From positions 951,250 through 1,015,249 of the forward strand of contig CAJNOF010000004.1 of assembly GCA_905250055.1 (NCBI GenBank): a DNA stretch of 64,000 bases, given 5' to 3'. The DNA is from Rotaria sp. (Eukaryota). Below, one piece after another: positions 8,625-15,282 of this stretch (its first letter is position 1; each line of letters starts with the position of its first letter). A model generated the notes under the pieces. That model did not search any database and had not been told where the DNA came from. It saw only the letters and a list, made by a program, of their open reading frames with translations. The position numbers and the translations under genes are program-made.

Positions 8625-9046
8625 AAAGATTTTTTTAGAAAACATTAGTTTAAACTTTGACTGTAAATATTTTTTTGACATTGACAAAACTGATAAGTAG
8701 AACATATATAATTTAGTTTGGTTATTCATTATTTAATGAAAAGTATTCATAAAAAAAAAATTACCTAGAAATCCTGCAGGATATTTCATCACGTAAACTT
8801 CTAATTAATAAACGTTTCTAGGCTAATTTTATAAAGCATTTTAATGAGATATATTTTTCTCTATCATTCTATAGAAAACTTTCAACAAGAAAACAAAGAC
8901 AATATGAAGTATGTTACAAAGAAAAAAAAAATGAATGTGTCATCATAAGTTTATTCTTTTCTAAATGACGTTCTTTATTATTATTTTTTTTATAATATTT
9001 TTATTGATTATAGATTTTATTTTTTTTTTTTTTTGTTTTCCGAATA

Positions 9047-10219
9047 ATGACTTCAATGGCTAATTCTTCAATGAATAATTTAACGAATCCATTATCTCAT
9101 TATTTTCTTGATAGTTTACATTTCTTTTTTAATCATATTTATTTATTATTACTTACTATAATTGGTTCAATTGGAAATGCATTTGTTATTATTATTTTTT
9201 GTCAAAGAGCATTTCGTACAAAAATTGGATCAATTGGTTCAAATATGTCTGTTTATCCATTTTTATTTTATATGGCTATATCAGATACAATGTATTTAAT
9301 CATATTATTTTGTTTATGGTTATCAAATTATATTAATGTTTTACATCGTCCAGTTATTTGTCAACTTACATTATATATAACATATGTCTGCAATTTTATC
9401 AATGCTTATTATACAATAGCATTTACTACTCAACGTTTATTTGCGGTTATAAATCCATTTCGAGTATCTCATGTTCTTTCTTGGTATCGTTCTCGATGTT
9501 TATCATTATCAATAATAATAATTGCTTGTTTAATATATTCATATTTACCATTTTTAATTGGTATTGTTGATGGTAAATGTTATTCTCGTCCAGAATTTCG
9601 TTGGGTAAATATATATATGGACATAATTGATTGTATTATTGTTTTTCTTATACCATATATTGTTATAATAACAATGAATATTATTATTCTTATATCATTA
9701 CATCGTATGAAACAAGATCGACATGAATTTCTATTTCGAAGTCATTCACATTTAAATAGACGACGTGAATTAACACGTCGTAATGCATCACGTAAAATAA
9801 CAAAATTATTATTAACTGTTTCGACATCATATTTAATTATAGGTGCACCTTATGCATCTATACATACATGGCGTTTATTAAATAATCGACAAGAAGACAA
9901 TAAAAATTCACAATTAATTAAACAATTAGAACATTATGCACTTTATATATATCATATATCATTTGCAATGAATTTTTATATTTATATGGTAATTGATGCA
10001 AAATTTCGTCATGAATTAAAACGTTTTTTTACAAAATCTAAACAAAATTTTAATCATTATTTTCGACAAAAGAAATTCTTTGAAAATAACAATCAATTAG
10101 AATTAGCAGACAAAAATTCTACAACAACAGTTGCATACACATTTAATGGAGATCTACAGAATATTAATCATAATCATAATCTTATGAGAAACTATTGTTG
10201 TTGTCATATTCATTTGTAG
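9047..10219 (+). CDS. Rhodopsin-like (class A) 7TM G-protein-coupled receptor, single exon, 390 aa
   Basis: One uninterrupted 1173-nt ORF with seven hydrophobic segments. Class-A hallmarks visible: GN in TM1, MAISD (conserved Asp) in TM2, TTQRLFAV at the TM3 end (DRY variant), NFYIYM in TM7 (NPxxY variant), basic-rich third loop (NRRRELTRRNASRK). AT-rich codon usage matches the other genes. Confidence 0.8.
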   Translation: MTSMANSSMNNLTNPLSHYFLDSLHFFFNHIYLLLLTIIGSIGNAFVIIIFCQRAFRTKIGSIGSNMSVYPFLFYMAISDTMYLIILFCLWLSNYINVLHRPVICQLTLYITYVCNFINAYYTIAFTTQRLFAVINPFRVSHVLSWYRSRCLSLSIIIIACLIYSYLPFLIGIVDGKCYSRPEFRWVNIYMDIIDCIIVFLIPYIVIITMNIIILISLHRMKQDRHEFLFRSHSHLNRRRELTRRNASRKITKLLLTVSTSYLIIGAPYASIHTWRLLNNRQEDNKNSQLIKQLEHYALYIYHISFAMNFYIYMVIDAKFRHELKRFFTKSKQNFNHYFRQKKFFENNNQLELADKNSTTTVAYTFNGDLQNINHNHNLMRNYCCCHIHL

Positions 10220-10466
10220 ATTATAAAACCACAAAAAAAAAAAGAAAGAATGTGTTAATAAAATATTTATAAGAATAGTTATCTTTTCTTTTCTTCTTCT
10301 TCTTTGTTAATTTTACATTTGCAATATATCTTTAAACGAAAAGAATTCTTATCATTATTCATTGTCTATGATCTACGTAAATGCGTATAAGTACTCTTCA
10401 GGTAGTTTGTTTTTCCATATTAAATTTTTTTACATTCATTTAGAATTTGTTACAAATTATCAAAAA

Positions 10467-12928
10467 ATGTCAGAAATAAATGAAATAGCAAAGGGTTTGC
10501 CGAAATCTGCTAGAATGAAATTTGAAGAATTTATATTATTTTATTTTTTAAGGAATAAAGTCAAAGAAATTTGAAGGCAATGGAGTTCAATTTAGATGCA
10601 AAATTATTGGTATGAAAATTACGTAAAAAGAAAATTTTGAAAATTGAATTAATTTTCATTTAAAATAAAGGAATGGAAGATTTACGATTTGATCTTGACG
10701 AAAAACTATGTCTCGAGTCAATATTTAGACTTAAAGCTATTGTACGTGCTCGTGGTGAACATAAACAAAGAATTCAATTAAATTTAACTGTGAATGGAGT
10801 TAAAGTTATCGATGAAGCTACTAAAGTATGAATAAAAAAATGTTATTTTATTTTTCTAAATTAAAGTATTATTTATTAGGTTCAAATTGCTGATCATGAA
10901 GTTACACGTATATCATATGTTATATTGGATCCAGGTGATATACGTGCATTTGGATATATTTACAATACAAGTGATGGTCGTCATCAATTTTGGGCTATTA
11001 AAACTGAACGATCAGCAGTAGTAACTGTTATTGCATTTAAAGATCTTTTTGAAACAGTTATGGAACAATTTAAAAATTCAGAAAAGGCTAAAGCAGAAAC
11101 GAATCAGCCAACATCTACATTTGTTTTACCAGAACCATCAACTGTTTCAATACAAGTAACGATAAATGAAATCTATTTTATTTATACAATTTTTTTTTCA
11201 GCAATCATCATTAACATCTAGTTCTGCCTCTACACCACAGCCACCAGTAATATCTGTAGAACCTGTTTCTAAATCAGCACAAGCTTCTACAGTACGCATA
11301 GTATTTTATTCTCAATCTTTTGAATAGAAATTAATTCTTAGACGCCATCGTTTGCTAATGTATGGGGAGATAGTCCTTCAGCGATGATTTCACAAACAGC
11401 ATCAGCGCCCAAAGTATGTGTAATAATTAGTTGACGATCTTTTTAATAAAAATTCCCTAGACTTTTTCGTTTGATGATACTTGGGGCAATAGTCCTTCAG
11501 CAACAGTTTTACAAACAACATCAACGTCCAAAGTATGTATATATTTTATTATGCACCTTTTTAATAGAAATTAACTCGTAGACGCCTTTGTTTCATGATG
11601 CGTGGGGAGATAGTCCTTCAACAACAATTTCCCCAACACCATCAATATCCAAAGTACGTATGGTATTTTATTCTCAATCTTTTTAATTGAAATTTACTTG
11701 TAGAATCCTTTGTTTGATAATATATGGGGAGATGCTCCACCAACAATGGCTTCACAAATAACACCAGCACCCAAAGTACATATGATATTTTGTTGTCTTT
11801 CGTTCTAATATAAGTTAACTAATAGACGGTTTTGTGTGATGATGTTTCGGGAAATAGTTCTTCAAAAACGGTTTCACAAACACCATCAGCGCCCAAAGTA
11901 TGCATAATATTTTATTATCGACCTTTTTCAATAAAAATTACCTAGTAGACGCCTGCGTTTGATAATGTGTGGGGAGATAGTCTTTCAACAACAATTCCTC
12001 GACCAACACAAACAGCTCAACAACCATCAACACCTAATATCAATCCGTGGAATATTAACGAGCCTGTAATGCCTATTATACAACAAGCTTCTCGTGTAGA
12101 AAATGTACGTTTTTAAAATTATTTTTCCTAGCCCATACAAAAACATTCGTTATCCAAGCAGACAAACATTTTCAAAAATGCGTTTAAACGCATAAAAAAG
12201 GGCTCAAAATCCATAAAAAGTGGATGTGTTTGGGTCACAATCGCGGTTCCCGACTGTCAGCGAAAAACGACCACTTTTTGCCCTTTTTGTGCGTTTTCAG
12301 CAAAAAAACGGTGATAAACGCGTGTAAATGCATAAGACGATCATAAAAAAGTTGTCATCTTTTTCATACTCATAAATCACAATCATAATTACAATCACAG
12401 TTCACGAAAAGGAAAAAGATAACTACTTTTTATGTTCTTTTTATGCGTTTATACGAGTTAACAAGCGTGTTTTTGCTGAAAACTCGTTTAAACGCATCAA
12501 AAGGGCAAAAAGTGGTCGTTTTTCGCTGACAGTCGGAAACCGCGATTGTGAGCCAAACACGTCCACTTTTTATGGATATTAAGCCCTTCTTTATGCGTTT
12601 AAACGCTTTTTTGAAAATGTTTGTCTGCTTGAGTAATGATGATTATCTTTATATTCAGCCTCTTGCTAATGTATTCAATATACATGCATCGCCATCAACA
12701 GCCACTAAAACAAATCAACAATCAGGTTCTATCGTAGATACTGGTGATCTATTTTTAACGTTTACGACGACTGCACCAATGCATACTGTTAATACTAATA
12801 TGTTTGTTCAACCAACTCAACAAACATCTTTTGTTTATCAACAGCAACCAAATTCTTCTGGTTTGATATCTCTTACACCTATTGCTCCGCCAACAGCAAC
12901 AAATTCATTTGATGATTTGTTTTCATAG
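10467..12928 (+). CDS. Disabled (Dab1/Dab2)-like PTB/PID-domain endocytic adaptor, multi-exon
   Basis: Resolved exons: ~10553-10609 (..GNGVQFRCKIIG, phase 1 donor gtatga), 10671-10825 (MEDLRFDLDEKLCLESIFRLKAIVRARGEHKQRIQLNLTVNGVKVIDEATK), 10880-11155 (VQIADHEVTRISYVILDPGDIRAFGY...HQFWAIKTERSAVVTVIAFKDLFETV), 11202-11291, six 72-nt mini-exons at 11342-11413, 11461-11532, 11582-11653, 11704-11775, 11826-11897 and 11949-12104, and a last exon 12659-12928. The PTB domain matches vertebrate Dab1 blocks GEGVRYKAKLIG, LCQDSMMKLKG..RSKGEHKQKIFL, HAVHEISYIAKD..RAFGY and [23 protein letters not shown]. The 5' end is unresolved: the candidate ATG at 10467 is in a different frame from the exon-1 frame, so there is either an upstream exon or a 1-nt indel. 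Confidence 0.75.
11342..12104 (+). repeat. Tandem array of six duplicated exon+intron units (~120 bp period) inside the Dab-like gene
   Basis: Each unit has acceptor (t)ag|AC, a 72-nt phase-0 exon, then donor gtatg/gtacg. Encoded peptides: TPSFANVWGDSPSAMISQTASAPK, TFSFDDTWGNSPSATVLQTTSTSK, TPLFHDAWGDSPSTTISPTPSISK, NPLFDNIWGDAPPTMASQITPAPK, TVLCDDVSGNSSSKTVSQTPSAPK and TPAFDNVWGDSLSTTIPRPTQ.... The introns are also mutually similar (...ttttaatagaaattaact.gtag). Confidence 0.8.
12157..12629. mobile_element. Non-autonomous MITE/foldback-type element with ~150-bp terminal inverted repeats, in the last Dab intron
   Basis: Left end agcagacaaacattttcaaaaatgcgtttaaacgcataaaaaagggctcaaaatccataaaaagtggatgtgtttgggtcacaatcgcggttcccgactgtcagcgaaaaacgaccactttttgccc is the near-perfect reverse complement of the right end (...gggcaaaaagtggtcgtttttcgctgacagtcggaaaccgcgattgtgagccaaacacgtccactttttatggat...aaaatgtttgtctgct). 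The central ~180 bp is unique and non-coding. The ORF-track ORF 12548..12928 begins inside this element, so the true last Dab exon starts after the acceptor at 12657/12658. Confidence 0.7.
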
Positions 12929-13444
12929 TCAACAATAGCTAAAACAATGCTTGTTTCCTCTACTGTTTCTAGCTAGACCAAATTAATCTATGAAATAGAA
13001 AGCAAATCAAAATATCGAAATATTTTCCAAGTATAATCTTAAGTTTTTATCATTTTAGCTTTGAACAAAGGCGAATATGAATGAATAAACATTTTTTGTT
13101 TTCTTTTGTCACTTTTTGTCTTTGTAAAAGCTATCCATCATAATTCAGTATCTTTTTTTTTTCTATTGAGTAATTAATATTCGTAATCTTGAATATTAAA
13201 ATTTTGATGATATATGGACAGATAAATATCTAAATAACTACCAATAAATGATTTTCAGTATATCTATAGTTTTCTTTTGTCATTAAAAATATGATTTATT
13301 TGTTTAGTTTGACAGTCTTTCTAAAAATCTATTTATTATATAATTCCCTACAAATTATCATTATTTCAAAAAGAGACATGAATGCAATTAACCATATAAA
13401 TGATATATACTAAACTTTTTACTTTTTCTTATAGGTTTATATCT

Positions 13445-14083
13445 CTATTTACAGTATAACCTCTCTAATGTGAGCACTATGGGGACCGGTCAAAAGTGCT
13501 CACTTTAAGGAGGTGCTTATTATTGGGAGGTTTTTAAATCCTTCATGAAGAGTCTGAATATTCACCCGAAAACACTTTTCGAATGTGCAGTGATATTGTA
13601 CTTCTTTTCAATAATTTATTTATTCAAATAATAATTTCTTTTCTAAGATAACAACTTTTTACAACACCAAAACTAAGTTTTTCTAAATAGAGGTAAATCG
13701 ACACATGGTGACATTATTTGATGTTAGCGACTATTATTACAAAAATGAGGACATGTCACACCAAACAACATTAATTATACTAAGTAATTTTCTTCTTCTA
13801 ATTACGTCCGATTAGTCTATGTCGGTCAAATATGTGTCCTTTGTTTATTTTTAATAAAGCAGACGACATAAAATCATTTATATGTCAGTTACAAAACACA
13901 TTGCTCATATTATAGAGGTTGTTATTGCTCGTAGGACCAATACAATGCGCTCATTAACAGAATGAGGAGATGCTCACAATTGAGAGACTCATTTCCAGCA
14001 AAATTTACTCGGGCGGCCCACAGAGCGCTCAGTATAAGGAGTTGCTCATTAGTGGGAGGTGCTCACATATAGAGGTTATACTG
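13445..14083. mobile_element. MITE-like element (~640 bp) with ~28-bp imperfect terminal inverted repeats
   Basis: 5' end tacagtataacctctctaatgtgagcac and 3' end gtgctcacatatagaggttatactgta are reverse complements with 2-3 mismatches. Internal sub-repeats include gtgctcac, ggaggtgct and gggaggt. No ORF. Confidence 0.5.
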
Positions 14084-15282
14084 TATTTTTTTTCAGAAAT
14101 AAAGAATTAAATTAAAACTCCTATACATTTAAATTTCATAATTATAAAAAAATTGTTAATTAATATAATTTCCATTATAGTGACGTCTTGATAGAACGAA
14201 ATCATCTTCATTAGACATGATACACAGATGTAAAAAAAAGGTTTTTTTCTAACAAAATGTTCTTTTTTCTTTCTTTATTTTGTATATGTTACCATATTTA
14301 ACGTTTGATAGTGGGATCGAGGAAGAAGATAAACAGCCCATTTCTTCTATCAGTATCATCGTTTTGTTGTCTTTCTATCATATGTTTTATGTTATAACAT
14401 ATCAAAAAGAACGAAAAAGTATTTAAAAACGGTTTTCTAGTAAATGAAGTAGTTTTTCTTTCTTTCAAAAGCTGCCATTTATCTCAAAATCAACTATTTG
14501 TATAAGATAGAATCATTGAATTTTCAAATTCAATTGAAATATACAAACTATCGAAAAATAGCTTGAAGACATTATATGAATCTAAAAAATAAATGACTTC
14601 TCGTAACCATAATTCATTTAAAACAGAGATATGATCGTATAGGTTTTATTAACGATGCTAAAATATAAAGTAGATCAGTGTTTTTTTGAATAACTTTCGA
14701 TAGGAACATCATAGAGACTTGCAATTTTCAGCATGTCCGAGAGAAGACTCGAAGCCATCGAAATATATCAAAGTTTGATGGATCAATCGGTTACTAATCA
14801 AATTTCAATGGCTCTAAGTTCCCTCTCTTGAATGGTCAAAACCACATGTCTTTGAAATGTTCCTATCAAGAGTCATTCAGAAACATGGACCTGTCTTATA
14901 TTTTGGCTTTGATAATAGTCTTAATACTTTACAATCAGATTGATCATGTTTATTCATGCCTTTTTATAGTTATCTTTGTTTCTTGATGTACTACCGTTAG
15001 TTGAGTCTGAACATTAGCATTTTTCTGTAAGTAAAATCGTTACTAAATAATATTCTAACTATGAAATCTATTAAAATTTCACATAATCAATAAACTAGGC
15101 TTCTTTCATATGAAAAATATCAATTATTTTATTCCAAATAAGTCCTGAAAACAAAAGCTAGTCTTCTAAACAGAAATTTTCATGTCAATTATTATATTAA
15201 TCGGTTTATTTTATTGATTATTCGAAGATTTCAAAAACAAAAATGGACGGAAAAGAATTGTGATTAATGAAAATAAAATTCA

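What the first reader, a model, noticed from the sequence alone, without database searches (positions are those of the whole stretch)
11342..12104. Disabled-like adaptor whose tail is built from six tandemly duplicated mini-exons encoding F-x-D-x-W-G-D motifs
After a canonical Dab PTB domain, the gene contains six ~120-bp exon-plus-intron cassettes. The exons are 72 nt and phase 0, so any number of copies stays in frame. Each encodes x-P-x-F-x-D/N-x-W-G-D/N-S-P-S-x3-S-Q-T-x-S-x-P-K. The FxDxW/DxW cores resemble the FxDxF, DPW and WxxF peptides that bind AP-2 appendage domains, suggesting a multivalent endocytic adaptor tail assembled by recent exon duplication. The fifth copy, CDDVSGN, is already diverging. 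The last exon also has FDDLF and NPW-like motifs (INPWNINEP).
Basis: partly seen in the sequence, partly recalled or inferred. Interest (0 to 1): 0.6.

Follow-up and report, generated by a model that had tools for sequence, protein, structure and literature searches.

The report
Rotifer Disabled adaptor with repeated mini-exons
A Disabled-type endocytic adaptor gene of the bdelloid rotifer Rotaria sp. Silwood-1 really does carry a tandem array of six intron-plus-exon cassettes, each encoding an F-D-D/N-x-W-G peptide that is the family's conserved DPW-type motif and probably an AP-2 docking site; the array is old, changes copy number between species and individuals, and is an instructive but not revolutionary case.

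Summary
On the + strand, 10467-12928 holds a 12-exon, 463-aa gene. It encodes a Dab1/Dab2-like PTB domain and a disordered S/T/P-rich tail. A 122-bp tandem repeat (11291-11996, 5.8 copies) makes five 72-nt phase-0 mini-exons plus the start of a 156-nt exon. All have GT..AG borders.

The window is Rotaria sp. Silwood-1, and the NCBI model already includes all six cassettes.

The interpretation needs three corrections:
- **Not recent.** Cassettes are 64-81% identical, less than orthologous introns between sister species (83-85%). Arrays of 3-6 copies exist in all five Rotaria species examined; three Adineta orthologues carry one such motif (one exon in A. steineri).
- **Turnover continues.** Two other Silwood-1 isolates carry a 5-copy allele with a hybrid cassette 4/5. 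It removes exactly the degenerate fifth motif.
- **An amplified family motif.** The core is a single DPWG motif in other invertebrate Dab homologues, and sister-species cassettes read FDDPWG, a literal DPW.

AP-2 alpha-appendage binding is therefore the best-supported mechanism, but it is untested. R. sordida annotations list cassette-skipping products, which hints at alternative inclusion. The whole gene evolves fast.

Verdict: real, a new variant of a known kind, of moderate interest.

The parts
10467..10494 (+). Exon 1 (start codon; MSEINEIAKG)
   Evidence: Gene model. It matches the N-terminus of NCBI protein P0001 at 100% identity.
10553..10609 (+). Exon 2, start of the PTB domain (KKFEGNGVQFRCKIIG)
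   Evidence: It aligns to Dab2 RFKGDGVKYKAKLIG.
10671..10825 (+). Exon 3, PTB domain
   Evidence: AlphaFold2 predicts strands and a helix here.
10880..11155 (+). Exon 4, PTB domain C-terminal half (RAFGYIYN...HQFWAIKT...KDLFETV) and start of the linker
   Evidence: The alignment has 44 invariant columns across bdelloid homologues.
11202..11291 (+). Exon 5, S/T/P-rich linker. Its last 27 nt weakly resemble the cassette tails.
11291..11996 (+). Tandem array of 122-bp intron-plus-exon units, 5.8 copies
   Evidence: TRF; alignment A1, mean column identity 82%.
11342..11413 (+). Cassette 1 mini-exon, 72 nt, phase 0, TPSFANVWGDSPSAMISQTASAPK
   Evidence: Included in NCBI model P0001.
11461..11532 (+). 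Cassette 2 mini-exon, TFSFDDTWGNSPSATVLQTTSTSK
11582..11653 (+). Cassette 3 mini-exon, TPLFHDAWGDSPSTTISPTPSISK
   Evidence: One Silwood-1 model (P0176) skips it although the DNA holds it.
11704..11775 (+). Cassette 4 mini-exon, NPLFDNIWGDAPPTMASQITPAPK
   Evidence: It is the left parent of the hybrid exon in the 5-copy allele.
11826..11897 (+). Cassette 5 mini-exon with a degenerate motif (F->C, W->S), TVLCDDVSGNSSSKTVSQTPSAPK
   Evidence: Its motif is deleted in the 5-copy allele of isolates L007 and L008.
11949..12104 (+). Ancestral motif exon (156 nt). It carries the sixth FxDxWG motif (TPAFDNVWGD) plus a second conserved D/N-P-W motif (INPWNINEP).
   Evidence: The orthologous single exon in Adineta steineri begins SSLLGDIWGDSP...ELDLWGNNEP after a phase-0 intron.
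12153..12633 (.). 481-bp foldback (MITE-like) insertion with a TA target-site duplication in the last intron. It is not part of the adaptor, but it explains the truncated public gene models.
   Evidence: The empty site is seen in Silwood-2 and R. sordida.
12659..12928 (+). Last exon, a disordered tail ending in a literal FxDxF motif (FDDLF) followed by S and the stop
   Evidence: It is orthologous to the last exons of the R. sordida and Silwood-2 proteins.

Best explanation
This is the fast-evolving one of two Disabled (Dab)-like PTB adaptor lineages of bdelloid rotifers, seen here in Rotaria sp. Silwood-1.

**Architecture.** The N-terminal PTB domain should dock on NPxY-type receptor tails and on phosphoinositides. 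The rest of the protein is a disordered tail carrying short linear motifs.

**Origin of the array.** One such motif, P-x-F-D-[DN]-x-W-G, is the family's conserved DPW-type motif. It ancestrally began a single exon that follows a phase-0 intron. In the genus Rotaria, a ~122-bp segment spanning that intron and the first ~45 nt of the exon was tandemly duplicated. Unequal recombination then amplified it. The result is a string of symmetric 72-nt phase-0 mini-exons, so any copy number or splice choice stays in frame.

**Proposed function.** Each cassette adds one aromatic-acidic peg on a flexible S/T/P spacer of about 16 residues. The array most likely works as a multivalent, low-affinity, high-avidity ligand for the platform site of the AP-2 alpha appendage. 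That is the site that binds DP[FW] and FxDxF peptides. It would take the role that DPF and FLDLF play in vertebrate Dab2.

**What is shown.** The gene structure, the Dab homology, the disordered tail, motif-specific conservation, the age of the array, copy-number change by unequal recombination, and homology to the DPWG motif of other Dab proteins.

**What is inferred.** AP-2 as the partner, the avidity effect, and regulated cassette inclusion.
For: **Gene and domain**
- 12 exons with GT..AG borders join into a 463-aa open frame.
- The protein is 100% identical to the Rotaria sp. Silwood1 protein P0001, which contains all six cassettes.
- The PTB matches Dab2 and Dab1 crystal-structure sequences at E 1e-28 to 1e-27.
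- AlphaFold2 gives a PTB-like sandwich plus helix for residues ~12-155. Residues 160-377 have no structure and pLDDT below 50.

**Reality of the exons**
- All cassette exons are exactly 72 nt and open, while the introns vary from 47 to 51 nt.
- The same holds for 17 of the 18 cassettes mapped in four species; one is 57 nt, also a multiple of 3.

**Motif constraint**
- Across 24 cassettes from five species: F4 in 22/24, D5 in 19/24, D/N6 in 24/24, W8 in 21/24, G9 in 22/24. Spacer positions are highly variable.
- The tryptophan column is at least 90% conserved across both bdelloid Dab lineages.

**Link to AP-2 ligands**
- Six cassettes in Silwood-2, R. magnacalcarata and R. socialis carry a literal D-P-W (five read FDDPWG, one LDDPWG).
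- Mollusc and other invertebrate Dab homologues have one DPWG[STM] motif 70-140 residues after the PTB.
- A nematode homologue has five [FW]NDPW copies.
- The 13 bdelloid Dab proteins tabulated have no DPF, whereas other Dab homologues have up to 10 DPF or 11 FxDxF.
- DP[FW] and FXDXF share the alpha-appendage platform site (PMC5694535).
- Dab2 binds the alpha ear through DPF and FLDLF (PMC3315808).
- The tail also ends in a literal FxDxF, FDDLF.

**Dynamics**
- Copy number is 3 to 6 in Rotaria. Three Adineta orthologue proteins carry one such motif; A. steineri DNA shows it as one exon.
- The 5-copy allele has a hybrid exon whose crossover lies in the shared TTCACAAA.
Against: - No binding data exist for this protein or motif.
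- In this window no cassette has the canonical proline of DPW. The central D of FxDxF is N in three of the five intact cassettes here (1, 4 and 6), and at position 6 in 10 of 24 cassettes overall. Affinity for the platform site may therefore be weak or absent.
- The cassette exons as a whole are no better conserved than their introns (72-73% versus 73-75%). Differences fall 77/68/46 on codon positions 1/2/3. Only the motif core shows constraint.
- The whole gene evolves quickly. For the PTB, pN is 0.157 and pS 0.162 between Silwood-1 and R. sordida. The neighbouring GPCR gives 0.057 and 0.12.
- Silwood-1 gene models rest on cross-species RNA-seq only, so splicing of the cassettes in this species is predicted, not observed.
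- I did not check that the Rotaria AP-2 alpha appendage keeps its platform site.
Confidence: 0.6

Rival explanations
1. The cassettes are functional docking motifs, but for a different endocytic partner than the AP-2 alpha appendage. Candidates are the mu-homology domain of FCHo/muniscins, which binds runs of DPF motifs; the AP-2 beta2 appendage; or clathrin.
For: The Dab2 DPF motifs bind the FCHO2 muHD as well as AP-2 (PMC3315808). Appendage and related sites are promiscuous for aromatic anchors (PMC3338440). The closely spaced, repeated arrangement resembles the multi-DPF ligands of muHDs (abstract of PMC4731787).
Against: The motif class shared with other Dab homologues is DPW / FxDx[FW], whose defined receptor is the alpha-appendage platform. 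The tail contains no clathrin box, no W-box and no beta2-type [DE]nX1-2FXX[FL]XXXR motif.
Confidence: 0.15
2. The array is a largely neutral by-product of unequal recombination in a disordered tail of a relaxed, redundant gene copy. One motif copy suffices, and extra copies neither help nor harm. Copy number simply drifts, and no valency tuning exists.
For: - Exon and intron divergence among cassettes are equal, and third codon positions show no excess of changes.
- The gene-wide pN is about equal to pS between close species.
- Copy 5 here and copy 3 in R. magnacalcarata and R. socialis have lost the motif without loss of the exon.
- Copy number ranges from 3 to 6, with a segregating 5-copy allele.
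- A second, slower-evolving Dab lineage exists in every bdelloid examined.
Against: - The F, D, D/N, W and G positions are kept in 19-24 of 24 cassettes, while neighbouring positions are scrambled. That is not expected for redundant copies over the divergence seen (cassettes down to 49-64% identical in R. magnacalcarata).
- No cassette in any species has a stop, a frameshift or a broken splice site.
- The one deletion allele found removes precisely the dead motif.
Confidence: 0.17
3. The W-G dipeptides in small-residue, acidic context are GW/WG 'Ago-hook' repeats that recruit Argonaute or PIWI proteins, a family greatly expanded in bdelloids.
For: Five WG dipeptides are flanked by D/N/S/T and spaced regularly in a disordered region. 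Bdelloids have expanded Argonaute families (PMC7943196).
Against: - The conserved unit includes F at -4 and D/N at -2 and -3, which Ago hooks do not need.
- Vertebrate Dab1/Dab2 homologues carry [DE]LFGDMSTPP, with F instead of W, about 50-170 residues after the PTB; homology of the two motifs is my inference.
- Invertebrate homologues have DPWG inside an endocytic adaptor that also carries DPF and NPF motifs.
Confidence: 0.03
4. The cassettes are not real exons. They are repeated intronic sequence that gene predictors string together because it happens to stay open.
For: Silwood-1 and Silwood-2 models were predicted with RNA-seq from another species. Some models skip a cassette that is present in the DNA: P0006 in Silwood-2 and P0176 in Silwood-1. 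No spliced transcript was found in the metagenome collection.
Against: - In a 28% G+C genome, a 24-codon window stays open by chance only about 1 time in 8 (my estimate from base composition). Yet all 18 cassettes in four species are open in the frame that joins the flanking exons. All have lengths that are multiples of 3, and all have AG and GT borders.
- Models for R. sordida, R. magnacalcarata and R. socialis, built with same-species RNA-seq, include them.
- The single ancestral copy is unambiguous coding sequence in Adineta.
Confidence: 0.05

Closest known systems
Vertebrate Disabled-2 (Dab2), a cargo-selective clathrin adaptor (CLASP)
   Same: - An N-terminal Dab-type PTB domain (E 8.5e-29 to PDB 6o5o).
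- A long disordered tail carrying aromatic-acidic AP-2 ligands, including a literal FxDxF (FDDLF here, FLDLF in Dab2).
- A tail region that is alternatively spliced in Dab2 (p96 versus p67).
   Different: - No DPF, NPF or clathrin-box motifs.
- The AP-2-type motif is F-D-[DN]-x-W-G rather than DPF.
- The motif is present in 5 intact copies encoded by duplicated mini-exons.
- The protein is much shorter (463 aa).
- It belongs to a lineage-specific fast-evolving bdelloid copy.
Invertebrate Dab homologues with a single DPWG motif (for example the molluscs Candidula unifasciata, Babylonia areolata and Bulinus truncatus)
   Same: The PTB is followed, after 70-140 residues, by D-P-W-G-[STM] in an S/T/P-rich context. 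Examples are SDPWGASSTPA and NDPWGSPTSTS, against DNIWGDSPSTT here.
   Different: Those proteins have one copy, plus many DPF and FxDxF motifs. Here the motif is amplified, the proline is mostly replaced, and DPF is absent.
Epsin DPW repeats and Eps15 DPF repeats (multivalent AP-2 alpha-appendage ligands)
   Same: They show the same design principle: many weak DP[FW]-type pegs on a disordered string, which gives avidity for AP-2 (motif definitions; the epsin and Eps15 repeat counts are my own knowledge, plus the PMC4731787 abstract).
   Different: They are unrelated proteins. Their repeats are irregularly spaced and, to my knowledge, are not encoded one per symmetric mini-exon.
Panagrolaimus sp. 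JU765 Dab homologue (UniRef A0AC34RFI3)
   Same: A Dab PTB followed by five [FW]-N-D-P-W-[GST] motifs on T-rich spacers. It appears to be an independent amplification of the same family motif.
   Different: It is a different phylum. The spacers are irregular (12-40 residues), and its exon structure was not examined.
Tandem exon duplication in general (for example duplicated cassette exons used for alternative splicing)
   Same: Adjacent homologous exons of the same length and phase with conserved splice sites, which arise and turn over by unequal recombination.
   Different: The classic cases are mutually exclusive exons that encode alternative versions of a folded segment. Here the copies are additive, and each carries one short linear motif.

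Membership tests
Disabled (Dab1/Dab2) family of PTB adaptors | An N-terminal Dab-type PTB/PID domain | tested here: met
   Best PDB sequence matches are Dab2 (6o5o, 1m7e; E about 1e-28) and Dab1 (1oqn, 1ntv; E about 1e-27). ARH, GULP and Numb score only 1e-4 to 1e-6. Pfam PID matches just above its cut-off (21.1 versus 20.9 bits). AlphaFold2 gives PTB-like secondary structure.
Disabled (Dab1/Dab2) family of PTB adaptors | Binding of NPxY peptides and PtdIns(4,5)P2 by the PTB domain | not testable with these tools
   Only sequence conservation can be seen. The blocks GEHKQRI, RISY, RAFGY, HQFWAIKT and KDLF align with Dab2.
Disabled (Dab1/Dab2) family of PTB adaptors | A disordered tail with endocytic short linear motifs (AP-2, clathrin, EH-domain ligands) | tested here: inconclusive
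   The tail is predicted to be disordered. It holds 5 FxDxW motifs, 1 NPW and 1 FxDxF, but no DPF, NPF or clathrin box.
DP[FW] / FxDxF ligands of the AP-2 alpha-appendage platform | Sequence D-P-[FW] or F-x-D-x-F | tested here: inconclusive
   In this window there is no DP[FW]. Cassettes read F-x-[DN]-x-W, that is FxDxF with the last F replaced by W; D is present in 2 intact cassettes and N in 3. The C-terminal FDDLF is a literal FxDxF. Orthologous cassettes in sister species are literal DPW.
DP[FW] / FxDxF ligands of the AP-2 alpha-appendage platform | Located in an intrinsically disordered, accessible region | tested here: met
   Residues 160-377 have pLDDT below 50 and no secondary structure. 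The tail is 42% S+T+P.
DP[FW] / FxDxF ligands of the AP-2 alpha-appendage platform | Direct, W840-dependent binding to the alpha appendage | not testable with these tools
   This needs a pull-down, ITC or NMR experiment. Complex prediction was not possible because only window proteins and search hits may be submitted.
Tandem exon duplication | Adjacent exons, with their introns, are homologous to each other | tested here: met
   TRF finds period 122 and 5.8 copies. In alignment A1 both the intron and exon parts align.
Tandem exon duplication | Copies keep length, phase and splice sites, so each can be included independently | tested here: met
   There are five 72-nt phase-0 exons with AG and GT borders. 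The same holds in three further species.
Tandem exon duplication | Copies are actually spliced into mRNA | not tested
   No transcript data were available. Support is indirect: gene models for R. sordida, R. magnacalcarata and R. socialis used same-species RNA-seq and include the cassettes.
WXX[FW]X[DE] ligands of the alpha-appendage sandwich site | Sequence W-x-x-[FW]-x-[DE] | tested here: not met
   No match anywhere in the 463-aa protein.

The most novel reading that the evidence does not exclude
The symmetric mini-exons act as a 'valency dial'. Alternative inclusion of individual cassettes within one animal, together with copy-number alleles made by unequal recombination in these asexual rotifers, sets how many AP-2-docking pegs the adaptor carries. 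That in turn would set how strongly its cargo is pulled into coated pits. This would be a clean natural example of short-linear-motif avidity being tuned one exon at a time.
Probability: 0.25. Interest if true: 0.55.

Novelty: new variant of a known kind. Interest (0 to 1): 0.38.

Why it matters
Endocytic adaptors work through many weak peptide-domain contacts, and how the number of such contacts evolves is seldom visible. Here each motif sits on its own in-frame cassette. Copy number differs among closely related species (3, 4, 5, 6) and among isolates of one species (6 versus 5). The unequal-recombination junction behind the 5-copy allele can be read directly in the DNA.

If AP-2 binding and alternative inclusion are confirmed, the locus offers a natural series for testing how motif valency affects adaptor function. 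It would also be an example of exon duplication acting on a linear motif rather than on a folded domain.

On the practical side, it shows that the public Silwood-1 models of this gene are truncated because of a foldback-element insertion in the last intron.

Tried and rejected
1. **Origin of the mini-exon tail.** I tested whether the last 27 nt of each mini-exon derive from the tail of exon 5, which would place duplication breakpoints in both exons. The alternative is that they derive from positions 46-72 of the ancestral exon. All three sequences are 52-67% alike, against a null maximum of 56%. The comparison cannot choose between the models.
2. **Tail-only protein search.** A search with the tail alone for more orthologues or transcripts returned only proteins already in hand.
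3. **Metagenome scans.** I ran one scan for a spliced cassette-cassette junction and one for motifs spaced as in mRNA. The first found nothing. The second found two unrelated repeats.
4. **Look-ups of P0001, P0003 and P0004 by exact product** failed. For P0003 and P0004 this fits their being shorter products of a gene whose longest product is on record.
5. **dN/dS by Nei-Gojobori.** The values are inflated across the board in this 28% G+C genome; the neighbouring GPCR gives 0.3-0.45. I use only the relative statement that the Dab gene accumulates amino-acid changes about 3 times faster than its neighbour.
6. **Other motif classes were rejected on sequence:** the gamma-ear/GAE motif (aromatic-G-[PDE]-[aromatic/L/M]; the cassettes have S or A at the last position), WXXF, the clathrin box and NPF.
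7. **Rfam** found nothing on either strand of 9000-14500, and no ORF of 70 aa or more lies antisense to the gene.
8. **Assembly collapse** as the source of the 5-copy allele was rejected. Cassettes 4 and 5 share only an 8-nt exact stretch at the junction, and two independent isolate assemblies show the same hybrid.
Full report
**What is in the sequence**

The window is AT-rich (22-35% G+C) and has very short introns. Between 10467 and 12928 on the + strand, twelve exons with GT..AG borders join into one open frame of 463 codons. Introns are 46-61 nt, except the last, which is 554 nt.

Tandem Repeats Finder reports a single strong array at 11291-11996: period 122, 5.8 copies, score 612. Each unit is a ~50-nt intron plus a 72-nt exon.

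A blind scan for AG, then 72 open nucleotides, then GT recovers exactly five mini-exons:
- 11342-11413
- 11461-11532
- 11582-11653
- 11704-11775
- 11826-11897

All five enter in phase 0. The sixth motif copy opens a longer exon, 11949-12104, which continues into INPWNINEP.

**Whose gene it is**

The spliced protein is 100% identical, over the part they share, to an unnamed protein of Rotaria sp. Silwood1, a bdelloid rotifer. That public model already contains all six cassettes.

The public model ends by reading through the last donor site (…VENVRF-stop). The reason is visible in the DNA:
- A 481-bp foldback element with a TA target-site duplication sits in the last intron at 12153-12633.
- It has 150-nt arms that are 92% complementary, and its DNA fold z-score is -28.
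- The empty site is intact in Silwood-2, and R. sordida likewise lacks the element.

According to the genome paper, Silwood-1 and Silwood-2 genes were predicted by BRAKER with RNA-seq borrowed from R. magnacalcarata. R. sordida, R. magnacalcarata and R. socialis used their own RNA-seq (PMC7943196).

**The domain**

Residues ~12-155 match the PTB domains of Dab2 and Dab1 far better than those of ARH, GULP or Numb (E about 1e-28 against 1e-4 to 1e-6). Pfam PID is matched just above its threshold.

AlphaFold2, run with a shallow alignment, gives the PTB strand and helix order for residues 12-155. It gives nothing but low-confidence coil from residue 160 onward. The tail is 42% Ser+Thr+Pro.

**Are the cassettes exons, and is the motif constrained?**

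I retrieved the orthologous loci of four other species. All lie next to the same upstream 7tm GPCR gene:
- R. sordida (L001, L006)
- Silwood-2 (L002)
- R. magnacalcarata (L003, L004)
- Adineta steineri (L005)

All 18 cassettes mapped in four Rotaria species are open in the joining frame. Their lengths are multiples of three (seventeen of 72 nt, one of 57 nt), and all have AG and GT borders. Their introns vary in length.

Across 24 cassettes from five species, conservation is sharply localised:

| Position | Residue | Kept in |
|---|---|---|
| 2 | P | 19/24 |
| 4 | F | 22/24 |
| 5 | D | 19/24 |
| 6 | D/N | 24/24 |
| 8 | W | 21/24 |
| 9 | G | 22/24 |

The spacer positions are scrambled. The tryptophan column is one of the very few tail columns that is at least 90% conserved across both bdelloid Dab lineages.

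Taken as whole units, the cassette exons are no better conserved than their introns, and third codon positions carry no excess of changes. Selection is acting on a short linear motif and on frame and splice integrity. It is not acting on the spacer.

**Age and dynamics**

- Cassettes within this gene are 64-81% identical.
- Orthologous introns between Silwood-1 and R. sordida or Silwood-2 are 83-85% identical, and 62% against R. magnacalcarata.
- Only the terminal cassette groups cleanly by orthology across species.
- Cassette 1 here shares PSF…MISQ.ASA with cassette 1 of R. magnacalcarata.

Copy numbers in Rotaria, from DNA or protein models:

| Species | Cassettes |
|---|---|
| Silwood-1 | 6 or 5 |
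| Silwood-2 | 4 in the DNA (3 in the public model) |
| R. sordida | 3 |
| R. magnacalcarata | 5 |
| R. socialis | 6 |

The orthologues of A. steineri, A. vaga and A. ricciae carry a single such motif. In A. steineri DNA it is the start of one exon that follows a phase-0 intron and that also carries the second D-L-W motif.

The array therefore arose before the Rotaria species diverged, and it has gained and lost units since.

Turnover is still visible. Two other Silwood-1 isolates (GCA_905331525.1 and GCA_905331535.1) have five cassettes. The fourth is a hybrid: cassette 4 up to …GGCTTCACAAA, and cassette 5 from there on. This is a one-unit deletion by unequal recombination in an 8-nt shared stretch, and it removes exactly the degenerate motif of copy 5. 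Assembly collapse is unlikely, because the two parents are only ~70% identical and two assemblies agree.

**Alternative inclusion**

In R. sordida, the same contig carries two annotated products that differ by exactly one cassette. P0181 has three; P0003 lacks the first. The DNA holds all three.

Two further pairs show the same pattern:
- P0177 and P0004 (P0004 lacks the second cassette)
- P0179 and P0005 (P0005 lacks the first cassette)

To my knowledge, BRAKER/AUGUSTUS reports alternative transcripts only when hints support them. If so, this is indirect evidence for cassette skipping. I could not see the reads, and similar skips appear in Silwood-1 and Silwood-2 models that had no same-species RNA-seq. 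I treat it as a lead only.

**What the motif is**

A whole-library HMMER search with the public protein returned 581 Dab-like proteins. Scanning the best 150 gave the following:
- Ten or more non-bdelloid invertebrate homologues have a single D-P-W-G-[STMLG] motif in an S/T/P-rich context, 70-140 residues after the PTB. Those with source names are the molluscs Candidula, Babylonia and Bulinus. Examples are SDPWGASSTPA and NDPWGSPTSTS.
- Four matches that I take to be vertebrate Dab1/Dab2 (the library carries no names) read [DE]LFGDMSTPP about 50-170 residues after the PTB.
- A nematode homologue (Panagrolaimus sp. JU765) has five [FW]NDPW copies.

The rotifer cassette (…F-D-N-I-W-G-D-S-P-S-T-T…) is thus an amplified version of a family-wide motif. 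In three sister species, six cassettes carry a literal D-P-W: five read FDDPWG and one LDDPWG.

The tabulated bdelloid Dab proteins have no DPF at all, whereas other Dab homologues carry up to ten DPF or eleven FxDxF motifs.

DP[FW] and FXDXF are the two defined ligand classes of the platform site of the AP-2 alpha appendage (PMC5694535; PMC3338440). Vertebrate Dab2 binds the alpha ear through its DPF and FLDLF motifs (PMC3315808). The protein here also ends in a literal FxDxF, FDDLF.

**Most likely mechanism**

The PTB domain selects cargo and membrane. The tail presents five intact F-D-[DN]-x-W-G pegs, one N-P-W and one FxDxF on flexible spacers. Together they form a multivalent, individually weak ligand for the AP-2 alpha appendage, coupling cargo to coated pits. 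The number of pegs would be adjustable by exon gain and loss, and possibly by splicing.

- Shown: the anatomy, the homology, the localised constraint and the dynamics.
- Inferred: the partner and the avidity effect.

Four points count against the inference:
- None of the window's cassettes has the canonical proline.
- The central acidic residue is Asn in three of the five intact cassettes in this window.
- The gene as a whole evolves about three times faster at the protein level than its neighbour.
- A slower-evolving second Dab lineage exists that may carry the core function.

**Rivals**

- A different endocytic partner, such as the FCHo muHD, which also reads DPF arrays.
- Near-neutral drift of a redundant tail.
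- An Argonaute 'WG hook' reading, which is unlikely because F(-4) and D/N are conserved and vertebrates use F in place of W.
- Non-exonic repeats, which is unlikely given 18 of 18 open, in-frame, splice-competent units in four species.

**Novelty and verdict**

The gene is annotated but unnamed. I found no description of the cassette array, though I made no literature search aimed at it. Every ingredient is known:
- the Dab adaptor family
- DPW/FxDxF motifs
- multivalent motif strings
- tandem exon duplication

The combination is what is new: one motif per symmetric mini-exon, with copy-number variation between and within species and a readable recombination junction. It is a new variant of a known kind, of moderate interest.

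Noticed in passing
window 12153-12633: A 481-bp near-perfect foldback (MITE-like) element with a TA target-site duplication is inserted in the last intron of the Dab-like gene. It is present in other Silwood-1 isolates but absent from R. sordida, and the empty site is intact in Silwood-2. There is no second copy in the 64-kb window. It probably explains why every public Silwood-1 model of this gene stops at ...VENVRF/VENVSF and misses the last exon.
   Followed up: yes
window 12926-12928 (stop) and 12929-12975: This allele has a TAG stop right after ...NSFDDLFS. Silwood-2 and R. sordida read on for about 15 more residues (...GDFSSKSTAAKTMLFSS...). The downstream sequence here is still recognisably homologous (STIAKTMLVSSTVSS), so it looks like a recent nonsense change. 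Adineta orthologues also end at ...FDLLGDFS.
   Followed up: partly
window 10671-11155 (PTB exons) versus L001: Non-synonymous and synonymous divergence of the PTB domain are about equal between Silwood-1 and R. sordida (pN 0.157, pS 0.162). The adjacent GPCR gene gives 0.057 and 0.12. This Dab copy is evolving unusually fast. A second, much better conserved Dab-like lineage (P0011-P0017) exists in all bdelloids sampled.
   Followed up: partly
window 9047-10219 (+): An intronless 390-aa family-1 GPCR (7tm_1) gene lies immediately upstream. The GPCR-Dab neighbourhood is conserved in R. sordida, Silwood-2 and Adineta steineri. In R. magnacalcarata and R. socialis, some public models wrongly fuse the two genes (713-740 aa).
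   Followed up: partly
L002 4924-4995 (Rotaria sp. Silwood-2); L008 (Silwood-1 isolate): Public gene models omit a cassette that is intact in the DNA: the third of four in Silwood-2 (P0006) and cassette 3 in Silwood-1 model P0176. This could be prediction noise or a hint of exon skipping.
   Followed up: partly
P0097 (Panagrolaimus sp. JU765, UniRef A0AC34RFI3), residues 283-385: A nematode Dab homologue carries five [FW]-N-D-P-W-[GST] motifs on Thr-rich spacers. This appears to be an independent amplification of the same DPW motif. Its exon structure was not examined.
   Followed up: no
L006 3726-3735 (R. sordida 10x assembly): A run of N (scaffold gap) falls inside the cassette array, between cassettes 2 and 3. 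Copy number in that assembly could therefore be under-counted.
   Followed up: no
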